From a virus (taxonomy: Duplodnaviria; Heunggongvirae; Uroviricota; Caudoviricetes), in the IMG/VR virus record IMGVR_UViG_2728369593_000006: a DNA stretch of 26,238 bases; one strand, given 5' to 3'. A program made the translations under genes and the position numbers. Shown piece by piece: positions 1 through 12,118 of this stretch (the stretch's first letter is position 1; each line of letters starts with the position of its first letter). The notes under the pieces are model-generated. The model searched no databases. It was not told where the DNA came from and saw nothing but the letters and a program-made list of their open reading frames with translations.

Positions 1-46
1 GCTCCCCGATAAATGCCTGCACATCAGTACTGCGTTCGCTAGCCAT
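1..46 (-). CDS. 5' end of a leftward hypothetical gene running off the window (MASERSTDVQAFIGE...)
   Basis: ATG at 46..44 (reverse strand) preceded by GAGGAG about 6 nt upstream; reading frame open to the window edge. Too short to identify. Confidence 0.3.
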   Translation of the reverse strand, partial: MASERSTDVQAFIGE

Positions 47-640
47 TTTGCTGCTCCTCATCATATCGACCCTGCAAGGTCGGTTGGTTTCTCCACAAAA
101 CAGAGAAGAACACCTGCGGTGGCAGCCGCCCGGATGGATTGGGTTATGAGCCCGTCGTCCGGCGATGCTCTTCTCTGTTTTGTAAAAAGAGCGGTACCAG
201 CCGGAAGCAAGTGTACAAACTGGTACCGCCAAAGCAGTGGCTGTTGTGGTGGGGTTGTCACTCAGGCGTATGGTCAACCTGACAATCTGGTGTCCTCAAC
301 GGGGAAAGAGTAACCCCGCCATACTTACCGCCGCGCCATTTCGCGGATTACCACAACGCTGAGAGCACTTAGCCAGTTACGGCACCACACTTTGTCGCGG
401 CTCCATAAATGCCCTCATCGTTGCACCCTGGTCTCTTCCCAGGCGTCAAACCGAATCGCCACGCTGGTTAGGCGTCTTATCAGCATCATCATTGACTTGC
501 ACATTCCGGCTACCTGGTTTGTTTGCCCGAGCAAGGAGTGGATTGTCCCCTTTAACGTCCCCAGACCGCTAACGACGCATGTGCCATACGCCGTGTTACA
601 ACCAAATTTTGTTTAATCTTGCCTGTGGCATGTTTCTTTT

Positions 641-657
641 AGATACATTATGTATCT
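641..657. promoter_or_regulatory. Operator-like perfect inverted repeat AGATACA-TTA-TGTATCT just beyond the 3' end of the repressor gene (candidate OL/PL region)
   Basis: Perfect 7-3-7 palindrome read directly; the related motif TACATATTGTA occurs upstream of cro (about 1470-1480). Confidence 0.3.
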
Positions 658-676
658 CAAGGGTACATTGTCAAGT

Positions 677-701
677 ATAAAAAAACCTGCCGAAGCAGGT
701 T
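677..701 (-). terminator. Rho-independent terminator for the leftward repressor transcript
   Basis: Stem AACCTGC/GCAGGTT (684-690 / 695-701) with CGAA loop; on the minus strand it is followed by a run of 7-8 U (plus-strand A-run 677-685); lies 12 nt past the repressor stop codon. Confidence 0.55.
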
Positions 702-712
702 ATAAATATTGA

Positions 713-1389
713 TTAGGCCTTTATTTGGTATCTTCTTGGTTTTCCTGAGAAAATTACTGTACCAATTATAGAGCAATTACCGTTAATCTTAATGTAAGGC
801 TCAGGCCAGTTTGGGTTTAATGCTTTGAGATAACGCTGTGTTCCATCTTCTATCAATCGCTTGAAGGTGGTTTCGCCTGTATCGTGCATCAATGCAATAA
901 CGTCGTCACCGTGGCAGGCAGGGACTTCGGGATCAACAAAAATCATGTCTCCCGGGCGGTACTCATCAATCATTGAATCACCAATCACCCGCAAGATATA
1001 AGTCATTTCGCCACAGGGTACAGGGCAGGGATAAGTTTCTGCTGTGCTCAAATCAACCTCAGAATAGCCAACTTCTTTCCATGCTCCGGCCTGTACCCAT
1101 GATATGACAGGGACTAACGTTATTTGTTTGTTAGTAATTGAAACATCAGGTTTTTTTGTGATGTTTGTTGTCTGGTGTTCTTGATCAAGCCATCCGACAG
1201 GCAGGTCGAAACATTTTTCGATGTGCCGTGCCATTGCTGTCACCGATTATTTTTAGTAGCACCATCTCCCATAAACCTGCTGGTCTGGGTTGGCTCGCGA
1301 TCAATCATGGTGGCAAAGGAAGAATTCCCGCCAACACCATCTCTCAGTTTTCTGGCGTTAGACCGCCGGATGTCATGGACTGTTTTCAT
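713..1389 (-). pseudogene. cI: CI-like prophage repressor (N-terminal HTH plus C-terminal S24 LexA-like autopeptidase domain), reading frame split by an apparent 1-bp deletion near 1244-1252
   Basis: ORF 713..1243 encodes an S24 domain closely resembling the lambda CI C-terminal domain (VIGDSM..., FKRL, LNP) but only about 45 aa precede it. A separate reverse-strand frame from ATG 1389 encodes MKTVHDIRRSNARKLRDGVGGNSSFATMIDREPTQTSRFMGDGATKNNR*, a typical repressor HTH, stopping at 1242..1240. The two frames join across an A/T-rich run. Confidence 0.6.
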
Positions 1390-1405
1390 AACGAAATTAA
1401 AACCT

Positions 1406-1424
1406 TTGTACCGATAGGGTACAA
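1406..1424. promoter_or_regulatory. Operator-like inverted repeat TTGTACC-N5-GGTACAA in the divergent repressor/cro intergenic region (candidate OR; PRM/PR region spans about 1390-1479)
   Basis: Perfect 7-bp arms read directly; a possible PR -35 TTGAAG (1429-1434) and -10 TAATAT (1452-1457) lie between it and the cro RBS GGAGG (1465-1469). Confidence 0.35.
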
Positions 1425-1479
1425 GTATCTTGAAGGTTCATCTCAATCATGTAATATGTATATCGGAGGTACATATTGT

Positions 1480-1680
1480 ATGAAAGCGTATTGGGACTCT
1501 TTAACCAAAGAACAGCAGGGCGAGTTGGCCGGAAAAGTTGGCTCAACACCTGGCTACTTACGGCTGGTTTTCAATGGCTATAAAAAAGCCAGTTTTGTGC
1601 TGGCTAAAAAACTTGAGCAATGCACGTCAGGTGCAATTACGAAATCTGACTTAAGACCGGATATCTATCCGAAAGATTAA
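1480..1680 (+). CDS. cro: Cro-like transcriptional regulator (Cro/YdaS family)
   Basis: 66 aa; GGAGG RBS 10 nt upstream of ATG; divergent from the repressor; C-terminal DLRPDIY motif typical of YdaS/Cro-like proteins (family assigned from memory). Confidence 0.7.
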   Translation: MKAYWDSLTKEQQGELAGKVGSTPGYLRLVFNGYKKASFVLAKKLEQCTSGAITKSDLRPDIYPKD

Positions 1681-1711
1681 CAGAACACCTTCAATTTTTA
1701 ACCACAGAACG

Positions 1712-2275
1712 ATGAGGCTAACCGTGGGTAAGCATCACTGGAAAGTAGAAAAACAGCCTGAGTGGTACGTGAAAGCTGTCAGAAAAACTATCGCGGCGTT
1801 GCCGGGGGGTTACGCTGAAGCTGCTGAGTGGCTGGATGTAACAGAGAACGCTTTATTCAACCGCCTTCGTGCAGATGGCGATCAGATTTTCCCGCTGGGA
1901 TGGGCAATGATTTTACAGCGCGCGGCTGGCACTCACTACATTGCGGATGCTGTCGCACAGTCTGCTGGTGGGGTGTTTGTATCGCTTCCTGAAATTGAGG
2001 AAGTAGAGAACGCCGATATAAACCAGCGCCTGCTGGAAGTCATCGAACAGATCGGGAGTTACTCAAAGCAGATTCGTTCGGCAATCGAAGATGGGGTAGT
2101 GGAGCCACACGAGCAGACAGCAATTAATGATGAGTTGTATCTGTCAATTTCGAAGCTCCAGGAGCATGCAGCACTGGTCTACAAAATCTTTTGCGCTCCA
2201 GAAAAGAGTGACGCCCGCGAGTGTGCAGCTCCGGGCGTCGTGGCGTGTCGTGACTGTGGAGAAACTAACGCATGA
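1712..2275 (+). CDS. CII-like regulatory protein (CP76-type phage CII family)
   Basis: 187 aa directly downstream of cro in the rightward operon; family recalled from memory, not searched. Confidence 0.45.
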   Translation: MRLTVGKHHWKVEKQPEWYVKAVRKTIAALPGGYAEAAEWLDVTENALFNRLRADGDQIFPLGWAMILQRAAGTHYIADAVAQSAGGVFVSLPEIEEVENADINQRLLEVIEQIGSYSKQIRSAIEDGVVEPHEQTAINDELYLSISKLQEHAALVYKIFCAPEKSDARECAAPGVVACRDCGETNA

Positions 2276-3108
2276 ACAGTTTAACGGCAAATAACCGTTT
2301 GTCGCAACAGCTGGTGGTCAGCGTCGCTGAACACCTGTTGTTACGGCATGAATGCAGATTACCAAATCACCTGGCTGTAAGTAACCACAGAGAACTTTAC
2401 CTGACTGTGGGGGGCGAGTTGTGCAGGAACTTAACCGCTGGTTTCGTGACGGAAGAGGACTTTATGTTCATGTTATTCGTTGGGAGCCAGAAACACAGCG
2501 CGTTATCTATCTTCGCAAAGACTACCCGCATGAGTGCTTTAGTCCTTTGTGGAAATTCAGGCGTGATTTTGTTGAGTGTGAAGGACCACCAGCACATTGA
2601 TTCTGCCATTCCGGGACGTTACACTGTTCAGGCACCTTATAAAGCGGGTGCCGGGATTGGCGTCCTGGAATTGATCAAGGCGATATATGACGCGCCAGCG
2701 TCTTTTTTATCGTCCGCATTTGCTCACATCAAAGTTATGGTGGGCTGGGCGGGGGCATCGAAAGATGCGCCGGTTTCCTTGATCACCGGTTACGCCAACC
2801 CCGTTCAGTTCACCACCAGCGAAATTGGCGTTTCCGGTGGTGGAAGTATTTCACCGATCAAGGAGGCTGCCATCATGGCTACTGTCCCAGCCCTCACTCG
2901 TCTGAATGATGAAGACTTACATAAACTCAGTTATGTAACAACTGCACTACGTGCTCTGCGCAAGGTAACTCTTTCGGATCCGCAGGCGCATCAGGTTTTG
3001 GTAGAAACCCTTCTTAACTTGCAGGCTGAACGTATTCGTCTGGCGGATAAGGCTAATTTTCATATTCACCGTCTCCTGAATATCAGCGGAGGGCATCGTC
3101 ATGCTTAA
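2272..3108 (+). CDS. Hypothetical early-operon protein
   Basis: 278-aa ORF whose ATG overlaps the upstream stop (ATGA), indicating translational coupling; no family recognised. Confidence 0.4.
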   Translation: MNSLTANNRLSQQLVVSVAEHLLLRHECRLPNHLAVSNHRELYLTVGGELCRNLTAGFVTEEDFMFMLFVGSQKHSALSIFAKTTRMSALVLCGNSGVILLSVKDHQHIDSAIPGRYTVQAPYKAGAGIGVLELIKAIYDAPASFLSSAFAHIKVMVGWAGASKDAPVSLITGYANPVQFTTSEIGVSGGGSISPIKEAAIMATVPALTRLNDEDLHKLSYVTTALRALRKVTLSDPQAHQVLVETLLNLQAERIRLADKANFHIHRLLNISGGHRHA

Positions 3109-3337
3109 TCCGTTGATCCTCAATATTTGCCGTTTGCTTCAGCGTAAAAAAACATCAATTCCTACAGTTGGGCAGTGGTACACCACGCCTGCAGGGCATG
3201 TTCTACGTGTTAGCCTGGTTGACCGTGAATGTCAGAAGGTGATTTGTGAACCGCTGGGCCGTAATTACCGCGTCAGTATGCCGCTTATAACCTTTCGCTC
3301 CGGAAAAAACATGAAGCATCTCGGAGGTGCAGCATGA
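3101..3337 (+). CDS. Hypothetical small protein
   Basis: 78-aa ORF with start and stop overlapping its neighbours in the coupled operon. Confidence 0.35.
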   Translation: MLNPLILNICRLLQRKKTSIPTVGQWYTTPAGHVLRVSLVDRECQKVICEPLGRNYRVSMPLITFRSGKNMKHLGGAA

Positions 3338-4218
3338 GTATGGAGCTGATGGTTAAAGCGATGAAAATTCGAGTGGGTAATCCATTGCGAAAACTGGTTC
3401 TGATCAAGCTGGCTGATAATGCCAGCGATCAGGGTGAGTGCTGGCCCAGCTACCAGCATATTGCTGACCAGTGCGAGATTAGCAAACGTTCTGTGATGAA
3501 TCATATTGCGGCCCTTTGTGAGTCCGGGCTGGTAAAAAAAGTCACCCGGAAAGGTGAAAAAGGTAACTCAAGTAATATCTATCTCCTTCATCTGGATGGT
3601 GCAGGAGATTCACTAGGGGGTAGTGCAAATAATTCACTATCTGGTGCAGCAAATTCACCAGGTAGTGCAGGAGATTCACTAGGGGGTAGTGCAAATAATT
3701 CACTATCTGGTGCAGCAAATTCACCAGGTAGTGCAGGAGTTGCACTAGGGGGTAGTGCAGGAGATTCACCCAGAACCAGTCACTCTTTTGAACCAGTCAA
3801 AGAACCAGTCAATGAACCAATAGCTGTTGGTGCATCTGCTGATGAGTCTGTGCGAGTTCGTTCAAACCGACCGGAATACTCTCCGGAGTTTGAGCAGGCA
3901 TGGCTGGCATATCCCAAACGTGCTGGTGGCAATTCAAAATCTGCAGCCTTCAAAGCCTGGAAAGCCCGTTTGAATGAGGGGGTAAACCCCGAAACCATGC
4001 TGGAAGGTGTGAAACGCTATGCGGGCTGGGTATCTGCGATGGGTAACAGCGGCACACAATTTGTGAAACAGGCTGTCACGTTCTTTGGTCCGGATCGTCA
4101 TTTCGAAGAATCCTGGGAAGTTCCTGCGGTATCTGCAGCCAGACGTGAGGACCCGTACTTCAAAGCCAGTTACGACAACGTGGACTACAGCCAGATCCCG
4201 GCAGGATTCAGGGGGTGA
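3334..4218 (+). CDS. Replication initiator (O-like): N-terminal winged-helix origin-binding domain, repeat linker, DnaT-like C-terminal domain
   Basis: N-terminus typical of phage replisome-organiser wHTH proteins; C-terminus ends ...SQIPAGFRG, resembling the C-terminus of primosomal protein DnaT as I recall it; internal tandem DNA repeats (iterons). Confidence 0.65.
   Translation: MSMELMVKAMKIRVGNPLRKLVLIKLADNASDQGECWPSYQHIADQCEISKRSVMNHIAALCESGLVKKVTRKGEKGNSSNIYLLHLDGAGDSLGGSANNSLSGAANSPGSAGDSLGGSANNSLSGAANSPGSAGVALGGSAGDSPRTSHSFEPVKEPVNEPIAVGASADESVRVRSNRPEYSPEFEQAWLAYPKRAGGNSKSAAFKAWKARLNEGVNPETMLEGVKRYAGWVSAMGNSGTQFVKQAVTFFGPDRHFEESWEVPAVSAARREDPYFKASYDNVDYSQIPAGFRG
3598..3780. repeat. 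Intragenic iteron array (candidate origin of replication): about 8 copies of an 18-24 bp unit GTGCA(G/A)NA(A/G)ATTCAC(T/C)A arranged as a 66-bp higher-order repeat, followed by 3 copies of GAACCAGTCA (3782-3820)
   Basis: Read directly; the 66-bp unit GTAGTGCAGGAGATTCACTAGGGGGTAGTGCAAATAATTCACTATCTGGTGCAGCAAATTCACCAG occurs twice exactly, then a degenerate third copy; analogous to the lambda ori inside gene O. Confidence 0.6.
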
Positions 4219-4220
4219 TC

Positions 4221-4709
4221 ATGAGTCTTTTGAATGAAGTTCAGAAATTCATTGAAGCCCATCCGGGGTGTACTTCCGGAGACATTGCGGATGCTTTTGC
4301 AGGTTACTCACGGCAGCGCGTTCTGCAGTCAGCAAGCAAGTTACGTCAGAGTGGGCGTGTGGCTCACCGTTGTGAAGGGGATACACGCAGACATTTCCCG
4401 CGCCAGACAAAGATATCGCCGGAGGCGGAACGGCAACCAGTTCGTGAAACCAGACCTGTGCGCAATTTCTATGTCGGCACTAACGACCCGCGGGAGATTT
4501 TATGCCTGACCCGCCAGGCTGAAGAACTGGAGTCCAGGGGCTTATACCGTCGTGCTGCAACGGTGTGGATGGCGGCATTCCGTGAAAGCCACTCCCAGCC
4601 AGAACGAAACAATTTTCTGGCGCGTCGTGAGCAGTGTTTACGGAAAAGCAGCAAGCGCGCTGTATCGGGTGATGAGTGGTATCTGTCAGGGAATTACGTG
4701 GGGGCTTAA
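4221..4709 (+). CDS. Putative transcriptional regulator: N-terminal wHTH, C-terminal PerC/ANR-like domain
   Basis: C-terminal motif LESRGLYRRAATVW...RREQCL resembles the PerC family (GLWRRAA...RRNYCL) as recalled from memory; start at ATG 4221 (ORF track begins at GTG 4215). Confidence 0.4.
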   Translation: MSLLNEVQKFIEAHPGCTSGDIADAFAGYSRQRVLQSASKLRQSGRVAHRCEGDTRRHFPRQTKISPEAERQPVRETRPVRNFYVGTNDPREILCLTRQAEELESRGLYRRAATVWMAAFRESHSQPERNNFLARREQCLRKSSKRAVSGDEWYLSGNYVGA

Positions 4710-5362
4710 TGAGTAATAAATATTGCCAGGAGCTGGTGGAACTGCGGAACAAACCAGCCCATGAACTGAAGGAAGTGGGCGATCAGTGGCGCACGCCGGA
4801 CAACATTTTCTGGGGAATTAACACCCTGTTTGGTCCGTTTGTTCTGGATCTGTTCACTGACGGTGATAACGCCAAATGTGCTGCGTATTACACGGCGGAA
4901 GACAACGCGCTGGCGCATGACTGGTCAGAACGCCTTGCGGAGCTTAAAGGTGCTGCCTTTGGAAATCCCCCATACAGCCGCGCCAGTCAGCATGAGGGGC
5001 AATACATCACCGGCATGCGTTACATCATGAAGCATGCCAGTGCCATGCGTGATAAGGGCGGGCGCTATGTTTTCCTGATCAAAGCTGCCACCAGCGAAGT
5101 GTGGTGGCCGGAAGATGCAGATCATATTGCTTTTATTCGCGGGCGTATTGGTTTTGAACTGCCTGCCTGGTTTATCCCGAAGGATGAGAAGCAGGTGCCG
5201 ACAGGCGCTTTCTTCGCTGGTGCTATTGCTGTTTTCGACAAGACCTGGAAGGGACCGGCAATCAGCTACATCGGGCGCGATGAACTTGAGGCATGTGGTG
5301 AGGCGTTTCTGGCGCAGGTTCGCCAGCAGGCGGAAAAGCTGGTCAGGGAGATGGCGGCATGA
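4709..5362 (+). CDS. Phage Dam-type DNA N6-adenine methyltransferase
   Basis: NPPY catalytic motif (FGNPPYS); length and position typical of the lambdoid nin-region Dam methylase; ATG overlaps the upstream stop (TAATG). Confidence 0.75.
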   Translation: MSNKYCQELVELRNKPAHELKEVGDQWRTPDNIFWGINTLFGPFVLDLFTDGDNAKCAAYYTAEDNALAHDWSERLAELKGAAFGNPPYSRASQHEGQYITGMRYIMKHASAMRDKGGRYVFLIKAATSEVWWPEDADHIAFIRGRIGFELPAWFIPKDEKQVPTGAFFAGAIAVFDKTWKGPAISYIGRDELEACGEAFLAQVRQQAEKLVREMAA

Positions 5363-5685
5363 CGACGTTAACTCAATGCCAGCAGCAGGTGCTGGATATG
5401 CTGATTTCTTATCAGAAAGAACGTGGCTTCCCGCCAACCAATCAGGAGGTGGCAACCATGCTGGGATACCGTTCGGTGAATGCAGCGGTGGAGCATCTTC
5501 GCGCACTGGAGAAAAAAGGCGTCATCACGATAAAGCGTGGCGTGGCCCGGGGGATCACGCTTCATACCGCAGTGAAGGACGACGACAGCGAAGCGGTCGG
5601 TATCATCCGCGCACTGCTTGCCGGTGAGGAGAACGCCAGGTTGCGTGCAGCCCACTGGTTACATGAGAGGGGCTTGAAAGTATGA
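5359..5685 (+). CDS. LexA N-terminal DNA-binding-domain homologue without a peptidase domain
   Basis: 108 aa; LTQCQQQVLDMLISYQKERGFPPTNQEVATMLGYRSVNAAVEHLRALEKKGVI parallels E. coli LexA residues about 1-70 ([53 protein letters not shown]). Confidence 0.65.
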   Translation: MTTLTQCQQQVLDMLISYQKERGFPPTNQEVATMLGYRSVNAAVEHLRALEKKGVITIKRGVARGITLHTAVKDDDSEAVGIIRALLAGEENARLRAAHWLHERGLKV

Positions 5686-6072
5686 AGTTGATCCTTCCTT
5701 TCCCGCCCAGTGTGAACACGTACTGGCGACACCCCAACAAAGGGGCATTTGCTGGTAAGAGCCTGATAAGCGAGGCGGGGCGAAAATTTCAGAGCGCGGC
5801 GTGCGCAGCAATAGTTGAGCAGTTACGTCGTCTGCCGAAACCAACGTCGGCACCTGCTTCAGTGGAGATCGTGTTGTTTCCGCCGGATAACCGGATCCGT
5901 GATCTGGACAACTATAACAAGGCGCTGTTTGACGTCCCTGACCCCAGCGGGTGTGTGGGAAGACGACAGACAGGTGAAAAGAATGCTGGTGGAGTGGGGA
6001 CCGGTTATCCCGAAAGGGAAGGTCGAGATCACTATCAGTAAGTACGAGAAAACGGCGGGTGCAGCCGCCTGA
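5682..6072 (+). pseudogene. rusA: RusA Holliday-junction resolvase, interrupted by a +1 frameshift at about 5934-5940
   Basis: Frame A (5682..5936) ends ...DLDNYNKALFDV then reads nonsense; frame B continues LTPAGVWEDDRQVKRMLVEWGPVIPKGKVEITISKYE to the stop at 6072, matching the RusA C-terminus; junction is at a CCC run (GTCCCTG). Confidence 0.7.
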
Positions 6073-6091
6073 TTAAGAGGAGAAACGAAGT

Positions 6092-6902
6092 ATGAATAAT
6101 CTGATGGTCATTGATGGTATTGAAGTTCGTCGTGATGCTTTATGGACGTTACAGCCTGAACGATCTGCATCGCGCAGCAGTAGCATCTGGTGCAAATGCC
6201 AGAACCAAGGAGCCAGGAAAGTTTCTTTCCAGCCAACAAACTGTTGAGCTTGTTCATGAATTGACCAACACCCAGAATTTGGGTGTTGACCCGGTGAGTG
6301 TGATTCATGGGGGAAATGAACGGGGAACGTATGTCTGCAAGGAACTGGTGTATGCCTATGCAATGTGGATCAGCCCGTCATTCCATCTGAAGGTGATCCG
6401 TACTTTCGATATGGTAACCAGCGCACCGGAAAAATTATCCGGGCAGGCTGCTGACAAGATGCAGGCTGGTGTGATTCTGCTGGACTTTATGCGCAGGGAG
6501 TTAAACCTGTCTAACTCTTCAGTGCTTGGGGCCTGTCAGAAACTCCAGGAGGCTGTTGGCTTACCGAATCTGGCACCGCGCTATGCCATTGATGCTCCTG
6601 CTGATGCACACGATGGCTCAAGTCGCCCGACACTGTCACTGAGTGCACTGCTGAAACAGTATGGTATCCGCCTGACGGCTAATCAGGCATATCACCAGAT
6701 GGTGAAGCTGGGGATCGTCGAGCAGCGCGAACGATACAGCCGTACCGCGATTAACAACATCAAAAAATTCTGGTCGCTGACAGCGAAAGGCTGCATGTTC
6801 GGCAAGAACATCACCAGTCCCGCAAATCCGCGCGAGACGCAGCCGCATTTCTTCGAATCCCGATTCCCTGAGCTGTTAAAGCTGCTCGATACCGTACATT
6901 GA
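6092..6902 (+). pseudogene. KilA-N domain protein, N-terminus interrupted by a +1 frameshift at about 6137-6143
   Basis: Strong RBS AAGAGGAG before ATG 6092 gives MNNLMVIDGIEVRRDA then stops after 51 codons; the long ORF (from 6111, other frame) carries the rest of the KilA-N domain (YGRYSLNDLHRAA...[33 protein letters not shown]); junction is at a TTT run. Confidence 0.55.
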
Positions 6903-6903
6903 G

Positions 6904-7900
6904 GTGACCGTGAGAGCACTACTGACCCCTGAAATTGCCCCGCGTATGGGGATCGTATTGTTCAGACCAGGTTCAGAGCTGATGCCCCTGTTTATGCAGG
7001 GGCGTGTCCTGCTGGAGCCTGAGCCGGAGCATTATTCATCTTTCGCCAGTGGTGCCGTTCCCGCGGCATCACAACCGCTGGCGGATGATCCTGTCGTTCG
7101 GGCCGTGTTCCGTAATGAGGCAGTGATTCGTCGTGCTGGTGGCGTGGAATGTCTTGAAAGCTGGTTACTTCGTAAAAAAGGCTGCCAGTGGCCTCATTCC
7201 GACTGGCACAGCGAGAACATGACCACAATGCGACACGCGCCGGGCGCAATCCGTCTGTGCTGGCACTGTGATAACCAGCTGCGCGATCAGTTCACGGAAC
7301 GGCTGGAATCAATGGCAACGGATAACTGTACCCGCTGGGTGTTGTCTGTTGTGCGTCGGGATCTCGGTTTTGATGACAGTCACGTTGTGACAATTGCCGG
7401 AACTGTGCTGGTGGCTGATTCGTAATGACCTGGCGGATGCCTTACCGGAAAGTGCAGCCCGTAAGGCACTGAGATTACCAAAGCCTGTTGTGCCGTCTGT
7501 CACCCGGGAAAGTGACCTTGTGCCTTCGGTTCCTGCCACCAGCATCATCCAGGATAAAGCGAAAAAGGTGCTGGCGCTGAAAGTGGATCCGGAGTCGCCG
7601 GAGTCTTTTATGTTACGCCCAAAACGTCGCCGCTGGGTTAATGAAAAGTACACGCGCTGGGTTAAGACACAGCCGTGTGCATGTTGTGGAAAGCCCGCTG
7701 ATGATCCCCACCACCTGATAGGTCACGGTCAGGGTGGAATGGGAACAAAAGCGCATGACCTTTTTGTGTTGCCTTTGTGCAGAAAGCATCACGACGAGCT
7801 GCATGCGGATACCGTGGCATTTGAAGAGAAGTATGGCTCCCAGCTGGAGCTGATATTTCGTTTTATCGATCGTGCGCTGGCAATTGGCGTGCTGGCCTGA
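6904..7900 (+). pseudogene. DUF968/YdfU-like protein with HNH-like C-terminal motif, possibly split by a +1 frameshift near 7418-7426 (alternatively two adjacent genes)
   Basis: ORFs 6904..7425 and 7394..7900 lie in different frames and overlap; combined length (about 340 aa) is what I recall for YdfU-type DUF968 proteins; C-terminal CxxC...HH...H motif. Confidence 0.4.
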
Positions 7901-7917
7901 TTTTGTGGAGAAAGTTG

Positions 7918-8283
7918 ATGCGTGATATTCAAATGGTTCTTGAACATTGGGGGGCATGGGTGGCAAATAATCACGAGGATGTCACTTGGTCGTCTATTGC
8001 TGCAGGATTTAAAGGACTAATCCCTTCAAAAGTAAAATCCCGCCCGCAATGTTGTGACGATGACGCGATGATCATTTGTGGATGCATGGCTCGCCTGAAA
8101 AAGAACAACAGCGATTTGCACGATTTATTAGTGGATTATTATGTAGGTGGTATGACGTTTATGGCGCTTGCCCGTAAACATGGGCGTTCTGATTGCTGGG
8201 TTGGGCGTTTATTGCAAAAGGCTGAAGGTGTAGTTGATGGCATGTTAATGATGTTAGAAATTGAGCTAGAGATGGATCGTTAG
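7918..8283 (+). CDS. Q: Late-gene antiterminator Q (phage 82 / QuuD type)
   Basis: [33 protein letters not shown]...[33 protein letters not shown] closely matches the E. coli DLP12 QuuD sequence as recalled; GTGGAG RBS 8 nt upstream. Confidence 0.8.
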
Positions 8284-8325
8284 AAGACCTCTTATTGAGG
8301 GGGTAATTGAATCAGTTTAATGTGT

Positions 8326-8356
8326 GGGGAGTCGATTTATTCTCCCCATTTTATTT
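8326..8356 (+). terminator. Rho-independent terminator about 45 nt downstream of Q (candidate tR')
   Basis: Stem GGGGAG/CTCCCC (8326-8331 / 8342-8347) followed by ATTTTATTT; U-rich tail is on the plus strand only. Confidence 0.5.
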
Positions 8357-8367
8357 AATTAATTTAC

Positions 8368-8814
8368 TTAAGGTTTTAATTCATCAAGACGTTGTTGGAT
8401 AGTGTTTTTGCTTGCGTTGTCTGTTATAGCCATTTGTTGTACTTGCCCCATTGCCATTTGAGTTTCCATCCACATATCGGCCCACACTTTTGTATCGTTA
8501 TTAACTTGAGCGATAGTAAATTTGACTTTTGATACCGGGGTTGTTGAATAGGCATTGCCGATTAACATTTGTCCAAAAACAGCAGACCCGCCTTCCAGTT
8601 CTTTACCACATATAACACTGCTGTTATCCGCGTTGTAAATTATCAACCCTCTACTATTGCAGTAATTCACAAGGGCATCTTTGACTTTATCTTTTGTCGT
8701 ATTTTGATAAACCCCCTCAGGTTTTCCTGATTGAGTTTTCTTTATCAATGGTACGGAAGAAGTACAACCTGAAATGATAGTTGCGCTAAGTAATAATACA
8801 GTCATTTTATTCAT
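8368..8814 (-). CDS. Lipoprotein of unknown function (moron in the Q-lysis interval)
   Basis: 148 aa; N-terminal signal peptide with lipobox LLSATIISG-C; AT-rich coding sequence; opposite orientation to the flanking phage operons. Confidence 0.6.
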   Translation of the reverse strand: MNKMTVLLLSATIISGCTSSVPLIKKTQSGKPEGVYQNTTKDKVKDALVNYCNSRGLIIYNADNSSVICGKELEGGSAVFGQMLIGNAYSTTPVSKVKFTIAQVNNDTKVWADMWMETQMAMGQVQQMAITDNASKNTIQQRLDELKP

Positions 8815-9084
8815 GTTTCTTATCCATTGTTAAGGGCATACCCACACAATTATTTTTATTGGAGATGAATAATCAACCGTTTACAATCGTAAAAAATCAA
8901 ATATGCTGTTAAGAGTGGTTACTTCGCCACACAACTTAAACCCGCCGCTGAGCGGTTTTTTTGTACCTGTAAACCTGGAGCAGTACAGTAAACACGCTGG
9001 TGGTCGTGAATACTGACTTTTTATCTTGCTGGCTTTTTAGACAAGAGTTATTGGTATGTCATGTTAACCAGAAGGGAAAAAGAC

Positions 9085-9288
9085 ATGCTAAAACAGCAAG
9101 ATATGACAGAAACCGCCGCAGCAGTCCTTCATTTCTTACCTGCTGACAAGTGGGTAACGCCACGCATGATGACGAGAACTACCGGAGTAAGCGAAGCCCG
9201 GTGCCAGTTAATACTGACTCAGTTAGTTCTGGCGGGTCTGGCGAAGGATAACGGCGGGTACGGGAATAAATTCAGACGCTGCCAGTAA
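9085..9288 (+). CDS. Hypothetical small wHTH-like protein (ORF track start 9061; ATG 9085 has the better RBS)
   Basis: 67-75 aa ORF; AAGGGAAA about 7 nt upstream of ATG 9085; no family recognised. Confidence 0.3.
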   Translation: MLKQQDMTETAAAVLHFLPADKWVTPRMMTRTTGVSEARCQLILTQLVLAGLAKDNGGYGNKFRRCQ

Positions 9289-9438
9289 TGGCGGTTTCCT
9301 GCTGTGAAAATGGGCGGCTGGTGGGTGTTGGTAGCACCTGCCAGCCATTCGCTCATGCTTACTGGTCACAAGCGAACCACGGCCCACTGCTTTAGCGCAA
9401 AAGCAGAGTGAGCCTACCAGAGTTACGCTTACAGATCC

Positions 9439-10491
9439 ATGAAAAATACTGTAAAAATAAACAGTGTTGATTTAATCAACGCTGATTGCCTGCATTTTAT
9501 TCAGTCCCTGCCTGATGATTCCATTGACCTGATTGTTACCGATCCGCCGTACTTCAAGGTGAAACCCAACGGCTGGGACAATCAGTGGAAAGGGGACGAA
9601 GATTACCTTAAGTGGCTGGACCACTGTCTGGCCCAGTTCTGGCGGGTGTTAAAACCTGCCGGAAGCCTTTACCTGTTCTGTGGGCATCGCCTGGCATCTG
9701 ATATTGAGATCATGATGCGTGAACGTTTCAACGTGCTTAACCATATCATCTGGGCGAAGCCGTCCGGACGTTGGAATGGGTGTAATAAAGAAAGTCTGCG
9801 CGCATATTTTCCTGCCACAGAGCGCGTTCTGTTTGCTGAACATTACCAGGGGCCATATCGCGGCAAAAGTGACGGCTATGCAGCAAAAGAAAGGGAACTC
9901 AAACAGCACATAATGGCACCGCTGATATCGTATTTCAGGGATGCTCGTGCCGAACTGGGTATAACGGCAAAACAAATTGCCGAAGCCACAGGTAAGAAAA
10001 ATATGGTTTCCCACTGGTTTGGTGCCAGTCAGTGGCAGTTGCCGAATGAGGCTGACTATCGGAAGTTACAGGCACTGTTTTCCCGTATAGCGGCAGAGAA
10101 GTTTCAGGAACAACAACTGGAACAACCACACCACCAGCTGGTGGCATCTTATGATTCACTGAATCGCAAATATTCTGAATTGCTGGATGAGTTTAAATCT
10201 CTCCGGCGCTATTTCTCCGTATCAGTCTCCGTGCCTTATACCGATGTCTGGATGCATAAACCCGTTCAGTTCTACCCGGGTAAACATCCGTGTGAGAAAC
10301 CTGCGGATATGCTCCGGCAAATAATCAATGCCAGTAGTCGACCTGGTGATCTGGTTGCTGATTTTTTTATGGGATCCGGTTCCACAATAAAAGCAGCAAT
10401 GGCGCTGGGGCGTCGGGCCTTAGGTGTTGAGCTTGAGTCAGAGCGGTTTAACCAGACAGTGAAAGAGATAAACGAGCTGGTGGGGAAATAA
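9439..10491 (+). CDS. Orphan DNA methyltransferase (N6-adenine/N4-cytosine family, beta-class motif order)
   Basis: 350 aa; motif IV TDPPYF near the N-terminus and AdoMet-binding motif I DFFMGSGST near the C-terminus; no adjacent restriction endonuclease gene. Confidence 0.8.
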   Translation: MKNTVKINSVDLINADCLHFIQSLPDDSIDLIVTDPPYFKVKPNGWDNQWKGDEDYLKWLDHCLAQFWRVLKPAGSLYLFCGHRLASDIEIMMRERFNVLNHIIWAKPSGRWNGCNKESLRAYFPATERVLFAEHYQGPYRGKSDGYAAKERELKQHIMAPLISYFRDARAELGITAKQIAEATGKKNMVSHWFGASQWQLPNEADYRKLQALFSRIAAEKFQEQQLEQPHHQLVASYDSLNRKYSELLDEFKSLRRYFSVSVSVPYTDVWMHKPVQFYPGKHPCEKPADMLRQIINASSRPGDLVADFFMGSGSTIKAAMALGRRALGVELESERFNQTVKEINELVGK

Positions 10492-10497
10492 TCTGGT

Positions 10498-10522
10498 GGC
10501 CACGTAGGTGGCCTTTTTATTT
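10498..10522 (+). terminator. Rho-independent terminator after the methyltransferase gene
   Basis: Stem GGCCAC/GTGGCC with GTAG loop (10498-10513) followed by TTTTTATTT. Confidence 0.5.
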
Positions 10523-10557
10523 CCATTACACAGCACCCGCATCTGCGAGGTGGGGTT

Positions 10558-10773
10558 ATGAAATCCATGGATAAGTTAACAACGGGTGTCGCCTATGGCA
10601 CCTCAGCAGGTAGTGCCGGGTACTGGTTTTTACAGTTGCTCGATAAAGTCACGCCCTCACAGTGGGCGGCAATAGGTGTGCTGGGTAGTCTGGTATTTGG
10701 CTTGCTGACGTATCTGACAAACCTTTATTTCAAGATTAAAGAAGATAAGCGTAAGGCTGCGAGAGGTGAATAA
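10558..10773 (+). CDS. S: Class II pinholin (phage 21 S21 type)
   Basis: 71 aa; [71 protein letters not shown], near-identical in pattern to S21; dual-start MKSM motif. Confidence 0.8.
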
Positions 10774-11270
10774 TGTCGCCATCATTACGCAAGGCTGTTG
10801 CTGCTGCTATTGGTGGTGGGGCTGTTGCCATAGCGTCTGTGCTCATCACTGGTCCGAGTGGTGACGATGGCCTGGAAGGTGTCAGCTACATACCATACAA
10901 AGATATCGTTGGCGTATGGACTGTATGTCACGGACACACCGGAAAAGACATCATGCTAGGTAAAACGTATACCGAAGCAGAATGCAAAGCCCTCCTGAAT
11001 AAAGACCTTGCCACGGTCGCCAGACAAATTAACCCGTACATCAAAGTCGATATACCGGAAACAACGCGCGGCGCTCTTTACTCGTTCGTCTACAACGTGG
11101 GTGCTGGCAATTTCAGAACATCGACGCTTCTTCGCAAAATAAACCAGGGCGATATCAAAGGCGCATGTGACCAGCTACGTCGCTGGACATACGCTGGCGG
11201 TAAGCAATGGAAAGGCCTGATGACTCGTCGTGAGATTGAGCGTGAAGTCTGTTTGTGGGGGCAACAATGA
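10773..11270 (+). CDS. R: SAR endolysin (phage 21 R21-type lysozyme, GH24)
   Basis: 165 aa; N-terminal signal-anchor-release segment ([18 protein letters not shown]) and lysozyme core; ATG overlaps the holin stop. Confidence 0.8.
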
Positions 11271-11734
11271 GCAGAGTAACCGCGATTATCTCCGCTCTGG
11301 TTATCTGCATCATCGTCTGCCTGTCGTGGGCGGTCAATCATTACCGTGATAACGCCATCGCCTACAAAGAACAGCGTGATAAAAAAGTCAGTGAGCTGAA
11401 GCAGGCGACCGCCACCATCGCTGACATGCAGCAGCGTCAGCGTGATGTTGCTGCGATCGATGCAAAATACACGAAGGAGTTAGCCGATGCGAAAACTGAA
11501 AATGAAACTCTGCGCGCTGATGTTGCCGCTGGTCGTAAGCGCCTGCGGGTCAATGCCAGTTGCTCCGCAGCCGTGCGTGAAGCCACCGGACCCACCAGCA
11601 TGGATAATGCAACCAGCCCCCGACTGGCAGACACCGCTGAACGGGATTATTTCACCCTCAGAGAACGGTTGATGACGATGCAGAAGCAACTGGAAGGGGC
11701 GCAGGAATATATCCGCACCCAGCGCATTAAGTAG
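11267..11734 (+). CDS. Rz: Rz inner-membrane spanin
   Basis: N-terminal transmembrane segment followed by coiled-coil-prone sequence; ATG 11267 overlaps the endolysin stop; Rz1 is embedded in the +1 frame. Confidence 0.7.
11487..11672 (+). CDS. Rz1: Rz1 outer-membrane lipoprotein spanin, embedded within Rz
   Basis: Lipobox LPLVVSA-C followed by a proline-rich mature region, entirely inside Rz in another frame. Confidence 0.65.
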
Positions 11735-11755
11735 CTGGAGAAAAAACACGAATCT

Positions 11756-12118
11756 GTGGTTTTTACTGAGCGCGGTGTACACGGTGGAACATATGGCGGG
11801 AAGTTTGTTGCTTATGATTATGCAGCATGGCTAAACCCCGGATTTAAATATGCAGCCTATAAAGTCCTGGATGACTACTTCACCGGAGAACTTCAGCATC
11901 GCAACAGCTTAAGTGCGCAGCTCAATATGAAGTGTCATGAGTTTGATCAGAAAAAAGATATGGCGAGCTTCTGTGGACAAGGGCTGGCGGCATGGCGCTA
12001 TACGAAGCCAGTGTTGGTCGCTGAGATTAACTCCCTGGCTAACCAGCTGCAGATAACGATCCCCGGGCTGTCCGGTATTTGCCGGTATGAAATTACCGGA
12101 AGGCGCGGTCGTTACTGA
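11756..12118 (+). CDS. Hypothetical protein with an N-terminally truncated KilA-N-like segment
   Basis: GGTYGGKFVAYDYAAWLNPGFKYAAYKVLDDYF parallels the end of the KilA-N domain at 6092-6902 ([33 protein letters not shown]); begins with GTG 22 nt after the Rz stop, in the same frame as Rz. Confidence 0.3.
   Translation: MVFTERGVHGGTYGGKFVAYDYAAWLNPGFKYAAYKVLDDYFTGELQHRNSLSAQLNMKCHEFDQKKDMASFCGQGLAAWRYTKPVLVAEINSLANQLQITIPGLSGICRYEITGRRGRY

What the first reader, a model, noticed from the sequence alone, without database searches (positions are those of the whole stretch)
5359..5685. Phage-encoded LexA DNA-binding domain without the cleavage domain
The 108-aa protein aligns by eye with the N-terminal winged-helix domain of host LexA and stops before any S24 peptidase domain. 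A LexA mimic that cannot self-cleave could occupy SOS boxes during DNA damage, damping the host SOS response, or could regulate phage genes carrying LexA-like boxes. It sits in the early operon between the Dam methylase and rusA.
Basis: partly seen in the sequence, partly recalled or inferred. Interest (0 to 1): 0.55.

Follow-up and report, generated by a model that had tools for sequence, protein, structure and literature searches.

The report
Phage LexA-like DNA-binding protein, no protease
A lambdoid prophage carries an intact gene for the DNA-binding half of the SOS repressor LexA joined to a small helical tail instead of the self-cleaving half; the gene is common and already annotated, but its function has not been tested and is most plausibly a damage-proof LexA look-alike.

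Summary
ORF 5359-5685 (+) encodes 108 aa whose first 70 residues are a full LexA winged-helix domain: Pfam E 2.9e-19, about 50% identical to E. coli LexA without gaps, and modelled at 1 Å rmsd on the LexA-DNA crystal structure. There is no S24 peptidase domain. Residues 74-103 form a helical hairpin that is conserved across the family. The gene overlaps Dam upstream and rusA downstream and is under purifying selection. It is not new as an object: it occurs in 2233 of 5426 complete E. coli genomes and in SfV, mEp460, cdtI and Stx2c phages, annotated "LexA family regulator". I found no functional study. New context: the gene sits just upstream of a rusA resolvase gene in nearly all divergent lineages examined. 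In one sub-branch it lies inside a terminator/promoter/SOS-box operon of the Gifsy antirepressor type. The window holds one strong SOS box (9447-9466). The "uncleavable LexA mimic" idea is plausible but unproven. Recognition residues S39, N41, A42, E45, K53 and R64-I66 are kept, but E44 is lost, and the helix varies among relatives that share identical SOS boxes. The closest characterised analogue is GIL01 gp6, an independently derived truncated LexA that activates late genes.

The parts
5359..5685 (+). Gene for the 108-aa LexA-like protein (stop codon included)
   Evidence: ORF. Pfam PF01726 E 2.9e-19. PHROG 362 E 1.6e-59. 96-99% identical copies in 2233 of 5426 E. coli genomes and 50 phage records. 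pN/pS 0.10-0.14.
5359..5568 (+). Residues 1-70: LexA-type winged helix-turn-helix. Recognition helix is residues 40-52 (SVNAAVEHLRALEKKG region); the wing includes R64-G65-I66.
   Evidence: Ungapped alignment to E. coli LexA residues 2-70. AF2 secondary structure. Foldseek rmsd 0.9-1.0 Å to 3jso.
5578..5667 (+). Residues 74-103: family-specific amphipathic helical hairpin (H74-88, H93-103), proposed to be the dimerisation module that replaces the S24 domain
   Evidence: AF2 pLDDT 87 in this block. The pattern EAxxIIRALLAxExxARxRAxxWLxxRG is conserved down to 40% identity, with A97 and L101 invariant. A dimerisation role is inferred, not tested.
4676..5362 (+). Dam-type N6-adenine methyltransferase gene, immediately upstream; its stop overlaps the LexA-like start (ATGA)
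   Evidence: PF05869 E 1.1e-45; sequence. No promoter-like or terminator-like site on the + strand between 3900 and 6040, so the gene is read as part of the early rightward operon.
5682..6072 (+). rusA Holliday-junction resolvase gene, immediately downstream; its start overlaps the LexA-like stop. Frameshifted in this window by a 1-nt insertion near 5935.
   Evidence: PF05866. Alignment to mEp460 rusA shows the extra T. The LexA-like/rusA pairing is conserved in divergent lineages.
9447..9466 (.). The only strong SOS box in the window (TACTGTAAAAATAAACAGTG), lying in codons 3-9 of the N6_N4 DNA methylase gene, the first long gene after Q, pR' and tR'. It is a candidate target of host LexA and/or the LexA-like protein.
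   Evidence: PWM score 22.4, against 11.8-26.5 for bona fide E. coli sites and 9.6 for the next best hit. Exact CTGT-N8-ACAG matches: 2 observed against 0.4 expected. Conserved in SfV, mEp460, Stx2a, phiP27, phiKO2, Hafnia and Klebsiella phages, even where the encoded residues change.
2375..2390 (.). Second exact CTGT-N8-ACAG match (CTGTAAGTAACCACAG), inside the Ash-family ORF. It scores below 8 on the PWM and is probably not a real site.
   Evidence: also present in mEp460 and SfV, within conserved coding sequence.

Best explanation
The gene encodes a two-module DNA-binding protein. One module is a LexA-type winged helix taken from an enterobacterial lexA. The other is a short helical hairpin that stands where LexA has its S24 cleavage and dimerisation domain. 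My best reading is a RecA-proof LexA look-alike. It is made only when the early rightward operon is transcribed (in a sub-branch of relatives, only when an SOS-box promoter fires). It dimerises through the hairpin. It binds SOS-box-like operators (CTGT-N8-ACAG) that host LexA has just vacated. This would re-impose repression on LexA-controlled promoters while RecA is still active. Possible targets are host SOS genes, the phage's own box at 9447, and LexA-controlled antirepressor or dinI operons of this or co-resident prophages. Shown: the domain identity, the absence of a protease domain, the conserved tail, the operon position, purifying selection, the presence and conservation of SOS boxes, and the SOS-box-driven operons in relatives. 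Inferred: dimerisation, SOS-box binding, repression, and the physiological pay-off.
For: Domain identity: Pfam, PDB and NCBIfam hits and a model at 1 Å rmsd on DNA-bound LexA. The recognition helix reads S39-V-N41-A42-A-V-E45-H-L-R-A-L-E-K-K53, against LexA [15 protein letters not shown], and the wing R64-G-I66 is identical. The tail is conserved to 40% identity and predicted as an amphipathic hairpin. The protein is 96-99% identical across phages with different immunity, Q and structural modules, which fits a host-encoded or universal target better than a module-specific operator. Only the N8 spacing of CTGT..ACAG is enriched in these phages, and one strong box lies in the window. In four lineages at about 40% identity the gene lies in a unit built as terminator, then -35/-10 promoter, then SOS box (scores 20.6-27.3), then dinI or a RecA_C-domain protein, then a small ORF, then the LexA-like gene. 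These prophages, where the repressor was on the contig, have repressors without an S24 domain. This is the architecture of the LexA-regulated antirepressor operon of Gifsy prophages (PMC3121763).
Against: No binding data exist. E44 of LexA is V here and is never E in the family. R7 and R28 are C and N. Positions 41-45 differ between clades (NAAVE, NTIAG, NAATD, NAVLL, NTVFI, YAAYE), whereas host LexA, as I recall it, is the same across these hosts. The SOS boxes in the relatives' own operons are canonical, so at least some members probably do not read SOS boxes the way LexA does. The 9447 box is equally conserved in phiP27, Stx2a phages and phiKO2, which lack the gene. As I recall the literature, a LexA N-terminal domain alone binds weakly, so everything depends on an untested dimerisation by the tail and on a dimer geometry that matches N8 spacing. 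The only characterised truncated phage LexA (GIL01 gp6) recognises its own site and activates (PMC6182141).
Confidence: 0.4

Rival explanations
1. A gp6-type regulator. The LexA fold has been re-targeted to a phage-specific or other non-SOS operator, and the protein activates or represses particular phage (or host) promoters during lytic growth, independently of SOS boxes.
For: Precedent: GIL01 gp6 is a truncated LexA homologue that binds GaCACAnnTGTGaC at the late promoter P3 and activates it. The recognition-helix positions vary between clades of the family, as expected for diverging specificities. E44 is lost throughout the family.
Against: No recurrent palindrome other than the SOS box was found in the early region, and no other half-site spacing is enriched. 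Late genes in these phages are controlled by Q antitermination. The window-clade protein is near-identical in phages with unrelated immunity and Q modules. Its helix is far closer to E. coli LexA than gp6 is to its host's LexA.
Confidence: 0.3
2. An accessory of the recombination module: a DNA-binding partner or regulator of the adjacent Holliday-junction resolvase RusA, for example by targeting or restraining it.
For: The gene lies directly upstream of rusA, often with overlapping stop and start codons, in the window and in lineages down to 40% identity. This holds in front of two barely alignable RusA clades, while the upstream neighbour keeps changing.
Against: Gene order in lambdoid nin regions is positionally conserved without implying interaction. 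One lineage has the LexA-like gene without rusA (L021). In two lineages a 66-67-aa ORF lies between the two genes, and in one a reverse-strand ORF does. To my knowledge many rusA phages lack the gene. The domain retains sequence-reading residues of a transcription factor.
Confidence: 0.1
3. A protein-level decoy rather than a DNA binder. The tail would interfere with RecA*, with the S24 active sites of LexA, CI or UmuD, or with ClpXP. Residues 86-90 (LLAGE) align with the LexA cleavage-site motif VAAGE.
For: The HMM alignment to LexA runs through the cleavage-site region, and an Ala-Gly is retained in the E. coli clade. Phages are known to target LexA and RecA with small proteins, such as gp7 and DinI-like proteins (PMC6182141, PMC3121763).
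Against: The Ala-Gly is not conserved in distant family members. The region is predicted helical rather than an extended cleavage loop. The best-conserved residues are in the DNA-binding surface.
Confidence: 0.07
4. A functionless remnant of a captured lexA gene.
For: Two neighbouring genes in this window are frameshifted, so this prophage copy may be decaying.
Against: The ORF is intact. pN/pS is 0.10-0.14. The family is conserved to 40% identity with a specific added tail. It is present in 41% of complete E. coli genomes and in functional phages such as SfV and mEp460.
Confidence: 0.03

Closest known systems
E. coli LexA (SOS repressor), N-terminal domain; PDB 1lea, 3jso
   Same: Same fold and about 50% identity over residues 2-70 without gaps. 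Same helix and strand boundaries. S39, N41, A42, E45, H46, L47, K53, R64, G65 and I66 are identical.
   Different: No S24 peptidase/dimerisation domain and no Ser-Lys dyad, so no RecA-stimulated self-cleavage. E44V, R7C, R28N, R52K. A 35-residue helical hairpin replaces the C-terminal domain. Phage-encoded, in the early lytic operon, with no SOS box upstream of its own in this window.
GIL01 (Betatectivirus) gp6, a truncated LexA homologue that activates the late promoter P3 (Fornelos et al. 2018, PMC6182141)
   Same: A phage-encoded, early-expressed LexA winged-helix protein with no cleavage domain. The phage's life cycle is wired to the host SOS response.
   Different: gp6 is 66 aa, a bare winged helix with no tail. 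BLASTP finds no significant match to the window protein, and its recognition helix is different (SHKTAHRYLMQLESKG). gp6 derives from a Bacillus-type LexA and this protein from an enterobacterial type, so the two are independent captures. gp6's site and its activator role are demonstrated; nothing is demonstrated here.
Non-cleavable LexA mutants (lexA3/Ind-, S119A); what the protein would work like (my own knowledge, and use of lexA3 in PMC3121763)
   Same: A LexA DNA-binding function that RecA* cannot remove. lexA3 blocks SOS induction and Gifsy prophage induction.
   Different: Those are full-length dimers with the native dimer geometry. Here dimerisation and operator spacing are unknown, and expression is conditional on phage induction.
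LexA-regulated dinI-antirepressor-irsA operon of Gifsy prophages (Lemire et al. 2011, PMC3121763)
   Same: In relatives at 40-42% identity the gene occupies the third slot of the same skeleton: terminator, promoter plus LexA box, dinI (in L021) or a RecA_C-domain protein (in L022), small antirepressor-like ORF, X, orf66, junction resolvase, Q.
   Different: In Gifsy-2 the X slot (STM1020, the irsA homologue) is a DUF1367 protein with no similarity to LexA. It is a positional analogue only. In the window itself the gene is not behind an SOS box.

Membership tests
LexA repressor (TIGR00498; PF01726 + PF00717) | N-terminal LexA-type winged-helix DNA-binding domain | tested here: met
   PF01726 1-65/65, E 2.9e-19. 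3jso superposition at 0.9-1.0 Å.
LexA repressor (TIGR00498; PF01726 + PF00717) | C-terminal S24 peptidase domain with a Ser-Lys dyad that also provides dimerisation | tested here: not met
   The protein ends at residue 108. No PF00717 hit. TIGR00498 scores 70.5 against a cut-off of 110.95 and matches only model positions 1-91 of 203.
LexA repressor (TIGR00498; PF01726 + PF00717) | Ala-Gly self-cleavage site used in RecA*-stimulated autodigestion | tested here: inconclusive
   LLAGE (86-90) aligns with LexA VAAGE. There is no catalytic domain, the motif is not conserved in the family, and the region is predicted helical.
LexA repressor (TIGR00498; PF01726 + PF00717) | Sequence-specific binding to CTGT-N8-ACAG SOS boxes | not testable with these tools
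   Only indirect evidence. Most residues I recall as contact residues are kept, but E44V. One strong box lies in the window.
LexA repressor (TIGR00498; PF01726 + PF00717) | Autoregulation: an SOS box in its own promoter | tested here: not met
   No box and no promoter-like site upstream in the window. Boxes do precede the operon in lineages L015, L019, L021 and L022, but which protein binds them is unknown.
Truncated phage LexA homologues of the GIL01 gp6 type | Phage-encoded LexA winged helix without a cleavage domain, expressed with early genes | tested here: met
Truncated phage LexA homologues of the GIL01 gp6 type | Detectable sequence relationship to gp6 | tested here: not met
   BLASTP finds no alignment at E <= 100. 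gp6 has no C-terminal hairpin and a different recognition helix. It is an analogue, not an orthologue.
Truncated phage LexA homologues of the GIL01 gp6 type | Binds its own palindrome at the late promoter and activates transcription | not testable with these tools
   No candidate palindrome was found near the putative pR' at 8860-8907. Late control here is by Q.
IrsA/DUF1367 (third gene of the Gifsy LexA-regulated operon) | Homology to Gifsy-2 STM1020 (PF07105) | tested here: not met
   STM1020 is DUF1367 (E 4e-98) and shows no similarity to the window protein or to P0172.

The most novel reading that the evidence does not exclude
Lambdoid prophages of Enterobacteriaceae encode a RecA-proof LexA paralogue that closes the SOS regulon again from within the induced cell. 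It would be switched on by the phage's early operon or, in Gifsy-like prophages, by the same SOS-box promoter that fires the antirepressor. It would re-occupy LexA boxes, giving a self-limiting pulse of antirepressor expression. It would also silence host SOS functions and the LexA-controlled induction switches of competing prophages and colicin plasmids. Since the gene is in about 41% of complete E. coli genomes and in Stx2c phages, this would be a widespread, overlooked layer of SOS control that bears on toxin release and on antibiotic-induced mutagenesis.
Probability: 0.25. Interest if true: 0.7.

Novelty: new member of a known kind. Interest (0 to 1): 0.45.

Why it matters
If the protein binds SOS boxes, a very common prophage gene would reshape the amplitude and duration of the SOS response in induced cells. 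That response drives mutagenesis, Shiga-toxin phage induction and cross-induction of co-resident prophages. If instead it has its own operator, it would be a second, independently evolved case after GIL01 gp6 of a phage turning the LexA DNA-binding domain into a private regulator. Either way the family (PHROG 362) is abundant, carries a name that implies a function nobody appears to have tested, and is simple to test: 108 aa and known candidate sites. As an object it is ordinary. It is already annotated in thousands of genomes.

Tried and rejected
1. Equating the gene with the "irsA homologue" of the Gifsy LexA-regulated operon. Rejected: Gifsy-2 STM1020 is DUF1367 and unrelated.
2. Homology to GIL01 gp6. 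No BLASTP match; the two are analogous only.
3. A functional link between the gene and the SOS-box-bearing methylase. Not supported as specific: the box is conserved in phiP27, Stx2a phages and phiKO2, which lack any homologue. About 20 of the 50 phage records that carry the gene (for example SfIV, SfII, Kati, SKA5, 2H10) are not among the 60 listed of 82 records holding the methylase; 22 methylase records were not listed.
4. Alternative half-site spacings (CTGT-N0..20-ACAG). Only N8 is enriched.
5. De novo palindrome search in 1-11900. Nothing recurrent.
6. A full 20-mer SOS consensus with up to 3 mismatches found nothing. The 9447 box has 4 mismatches in the AT-rich spacer and flank yet scores high on the PWM.
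7. Single-sequence AlphaFold gave a poor model (pLDDT 59). It was replaced by the alignment-based run.
8. The search for related loci with the family alignment failed for lack of a conserved stretch. I used the look-up of encoding contigs on individual proteins instead.
9. The LexA-DNA structure paper (PMC2921665) is not held. The roles of contact residues are therefore from my own recollection, except R52/K53 (PMC4807011) and N41 (PMC5999292).
10. Literature searches for any study of this enterobacterial family found none in the held library. The library lacks most subscription journals.
The bimodal result (above 20 against below 10) does not depend on the details.

Full report
**1. The observation**

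ORF 5359-5685 (+) starts with ATG and encodes 108 aa. Its ATG overlaps the stop codon of the upstream Dam gene (gcATGAcg). Its stop overlaps the start of rusA (gtATGAag).

Pfam LexA_DNA_bind (PF01726) matches residues 1-65 over the full model at E 2.9e-19. The next best hits are generic winged-helix families at E > 1e-3. PHROG 362, labelled "transcriptional repressor", matches end to end at E 1.6e-59. The NCBIfam lexA equivalog matches only model positions 1-91 of 203 and stays below its cut-off (70.5 against 110.95). Against the PDB the best hits are E. coli LexA (1lea, 1jhh, 3jso; E about 1e-15), with an ungapped alignment of residues 2-70. There is no S24 peptidase domain.

**2. Anatomy**

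A single-sequence AlphaFold run was poor (pLDDT 59). With a 30-sequence alignment the model reached pLDDT 83. It has these elements:
- helices at 6-22, 28-35 and 40-52, and strands at 56-58 and 66-68. From memory, this matches the LexA N-terminal domain NMR structure.
- a low-confidence linker at 71-73.
- a helical hairpin, 74-88 and 93-103.

Foldseek places the model on LexA in the DNA complex 3jso at 0.9-1.0 Å over 67-68 residues, 50% identical.

The hairpin is a family feature, not noise. Sixteen full-length relatives down to 40% identity keep the pattern EAxxIIRALLAxExxARxRAxxWLxxRG, with A97 and L101 invariant. Its hydrophobic positions (V80, I82, I83, L86, L87, L95, W100, L101) make it amphipathic. 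I infer that it is a dimerisation module standing in for the LexA C-terminal domain.

**3. DNA-reading residues**

From the alignment, position by position:
- Kept: S39, N41, A42, A43, E45, H46, L47, A49, L50, K53, G54, R64, G65, I66.
- Conservatively changed: R52 to K, K48 to R.
- Changed: E44 to V, P40 to V, R7 to C, R28 to N, R67 to T.

R52/K53 and N41 are documented as DNA-binding residues in papers I could read (PMC4807011; PMC5999292). The roles of S39, A42, E44, E45 and the wing rest on my recollection of Zhang et al. 2010, which is not held.

Across the family S39, K53, R64, G65 and I66 are invariant and N41 nearly so. Position 44 is never E. Positions 42-45 differ by clade: AAVE, TIAG, AATD, GAFE, AAAE, AVLL, TVFI. 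That variability argues against one shared SOS-box specificity for the whole family. The window clade is the one closest to LexA.

**4. How common and how known**

- The 327-bp gene is found at 90-99.7% identity in 2233 of 5426 complete E. coli genomes. There it is annotated "LexA family transcriptional regulator/protein".
- It is found in 50 phage records, including SfV (orf42), SfII, SfIV, mEp460, cdtI, fifteen Stx2c phages and some Stx2a phages. The labels range from "LexA DNA binding domain protein" to, wrongly, "SOS-response repressor and protease LexA".
- Window against mEp460 and SfV gives pN/pS of 0.10-0.14, with every amino-acid change but one in the tail.
- Seven full-text searches found no functional study of this family.
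- The one characterised truncated phage LexA is GIL01 gp6 (PMC6182141). It is a 66-aa bare winged helix, 44% identical to B. thuringiensis LexA. It binds its own palindrome at the -35 of the late promoter P3 and activates it.
- gp6 and the window protein give no BLASTP match, and their recognition helices differ. They are independent captures of the LexA N-terminal domain.

**5. Genomic context in the window**

The window is an SfV/mEp460-like lambdoid prophage. Gene order:
- S24-type cI (713-1243, minus strand), a cro-like gene, cII, Ash, and a replication gene with iteron-like repeats
- PerC/YfdN, Dam, the LexA-like gene, rusA, KilA-N, DUF968/HNH, Q (7903-8283)
- a reverse-strand lipoprotein-like ORF, and a putative pR' (about 8860-8907) with tR' (8944-8956)
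- a small ORF (9085-9288), an N6_N4 methylase (9439-10491), then lysis and terminase genes

No promoter-like or terminator-like site lies on the + strand around the LexA-like gene. So it is read with the delayed-early genes after induction or infection.

Two neighbouring genes are broken in this copy. rusA has a 1-nt insertion near 5935. The DUF968 gene is split into two ORFs. The LexA-like ORF is intact.

**6. SOS boxes**

Exact CTGT-N8-ACAG occurs twice in the window, against 0.4 expected. One site, 9447-9466 TACTGTAAAAATAAACAGTG, scores 22.4. Real sites score 11.8-26.5, and the next best hit in the window scores 9.6. Other spacings (N0-N20) are not enriched.

The box lies in codons 3-9 of the methylase gene. 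It is conserved in SfV, mEp460, Stx2a, Stx2c and Stx2e phages, phiKO2, and Klebsiella and Hafnia phages. In Hafnia yong2 the encoded residues in the box spacer change while CTGT and ACAG are kept.

phiP27, the Stx2a LC5678xx phages and phiKO2 have the box but no LexA-like homologue. The box is therefore a host-LexA site in its own right and at most a shared target.

**7. Context in divergent relatives (the most informative new result)**

I located eleven lineages at 40-67% identity.
- rusA follows directly in the window and five lineages (P0086, P0126, P0131, P0160, P0191), with overlapping stop and start in all but one of these.
- It follows after one 66-67-aa ORF in two lineages (P0137, P0230), and after an inserted reverse-strand ORF in one (P0123).
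- It is absent in one (L021). One contig was too short to tell (L023).
- The upstream neighbour varies: Dam, a C5 methylase, a replication gene, PerC, or small ORFs.
- The RusA proteins fall into two barely alignable clades.

So the LexA-like/resolvase adjacency is old. It may reflect function or only the positional conservation typical of nin regions.

In four lineages (L015, L019, L021, L022) the gene lies in a separate unit. The unit consists of:
- a rho-independent terminator (seen in L015 and L019)
- a -35/-10 promoter
- a canonical SOS box right at or after the -10 (scores 20.6-27.3)
- dinI (L021) or a RecA_C-domain protein (L022); L015 and L019 have no such gene
- a 75-82-aa ORF (PHROG 1813)
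- the LexA-like gene
- a 66-67-aa ORF (PHROG 1212; absent in L019)
- rusA or DUF968, then Q

. In L015 and L019, where the immunity region is on the contig, the repressors lack an S24 domain.

This is the skeleton of the LexA-regulated dinI-antirepressor-irsA operon that induces Gifsy prophages (PMC3121763). I checked whether the LexA-like gene is the "irsA homologue". It is not: Gifsy-2 STM1020 is DUF1367 and unrelated, so the two are positional analogues only. Lemire et al. report that non-polar deletions of the dinI or irsA homologues did not change induction. This warns that genes in this slot may have subtle phenotypes.

**8. Mechanism**

I commit to the following, at about 0.4. The protein is a RecA-insensitive LexA look-alike that dimerises through the hairpin. 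When the phage's early operon (or, in the Gifsy-like relatives, the SOS-box promoter) is on, it binds SOS-box-like operators vacated by cleaved LexA.

In the Gifsy-like arrangement this gives a simple negative-feedback loop on the antirepressor operon. In the window type it would act on host SOS promoters, on the 9447 box, and on LexA-controlled switches of co-resident elements.

In favour:
- the domain identity
- the near-LexA recognition helix in this clade
- the near-identity of the protein across phages whose other modules differ
- the SOS-operon context of relatives

Against:
- the loss of E44
- the clade-to-clade variation of the helix despite identical boxes
- the untested dimerisation and spacing
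- the gp6 precedent

Rivals:
- a re-targeted private regulator of the gp6 type (0.3)
- a RusA-module accessory (0.1)
- a protein decoy that uses the LLAGE motif aligned with the LexA cleavage site (0.07)
- a functionless remnant (0.03)

**9. Verdict**

The feature is real, intact and conserved, but it is already catalogued. The "uncleavable LexA mimic" hypothesis is reasonable, partly supported by context, and quickly testable. It is not a new kind of system. It is an uncharacterised, independently evolved member of the class of truncated phage LexA homologues, distinguished by an added helical tail and by its link to rusA and, in relatives, to SOS-box antirepressor operons.

Noticed in passing
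window 9447-9466 (also L001 41021, L002 34170, L003-L008 about 467): A strong SOS box lies in the first codons of the N6_N4 DNA methylase, the first long gene after Q, pR' and tR'. The DNA motif is kept even where the encoded residues change. In Stx2a, Stx2c and Stx2e phages it lies between pR' and the stx2 genes. It is present in phages with and without the LexA-like gene.
   Followed up: partly
window 5682-6072 (insertion near 5935): rusA carries a 1-nt insertion relative to mEp460 (GACG[T]CCCTG), which splits it into ORFs 5682-6041 and 5815-6072.
   Followed up: yes
window 6904-7900: The DUF968/HNH gene, a single 305-329-aa gene in SfV and mEp460, is split into two overlapping ORFs (6904-7425 and 7394-7900). 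This is a second frameshift in the same operon, suggesting a decaying prophage or assembly errors.
   Followed up: partly
L001 (mEp460) 31970-31989; L009 4836-4855: Very high-scoring SOS boxes (25.1 and 26.5) lie inside the coding sequence of S24-type cI repressor genes, at about codons 55-76 (hinge region). Their purpose is unknown.
   Followed up: no
L022 4907-4942 and 4975-5262: Two overlapping SOS boxes are followed by a 95-aa ORF with a RecA C-terminal domain (PF21096, E 9e-10). It occupies the slot that DinI holds in L021 and in Gifsy prophages, so it may be a RecA-tail mimic.
   Followed up: no
L015 9713-9961, L019 9724-9951, L021 797-1024, L022 5387-5620: Homologous 75-82-aa ORFs (PHROG 1813, function unknown) sit directly behind SOS-box promoters, and in L015 and L019 the prophage repressors lack S24 domains. 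They are candidate Gifsy-type antirepressors, only 17-24% identical to GftA.
   Followed up: partly
proteins P0133, P0134, P0148, P0151, P0152, P0154 and others: Many metagenomic proteins of 140-350 aa carry two tandem LexA_DNA_bind domains and apparently no S24 domain. [quoted passage not shown]
   Followed up: no
L019 13794-15390: A Salmonella prophage carrying the LexA-like gene also encodes an AcrVA2-like protein next to a Cas1-domain protein, on the reverse strand between the methylase and the lysis genes.
   Followed up: no
L015 7863-9232: RNase_A_bac and CdiI_2-like genes lie on the reverse strand immediately upstream of the SOS-box operon. This recalls the variable Gifsy-1 region that triggers RtcR (PMC9879122).
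   Followed up: no
window 3599-3769: Tandem repeats (66 bp x 2.4 copies; 21 bp x 7.7 copies) lie inside the replication-initiator gene 3334-4218. They are iteron-like and give the protein a repeated GDSLGGSANNSLSGAANSPGSAG segment.
   Followed up: no
window 5614-5628 (residues 86-90): LLAGE in the tail aligns with the LexA cleavage-site motif VAAGE. The Ala-Gly is retained only in the E. coli clade of the family.
   Followed up: partly
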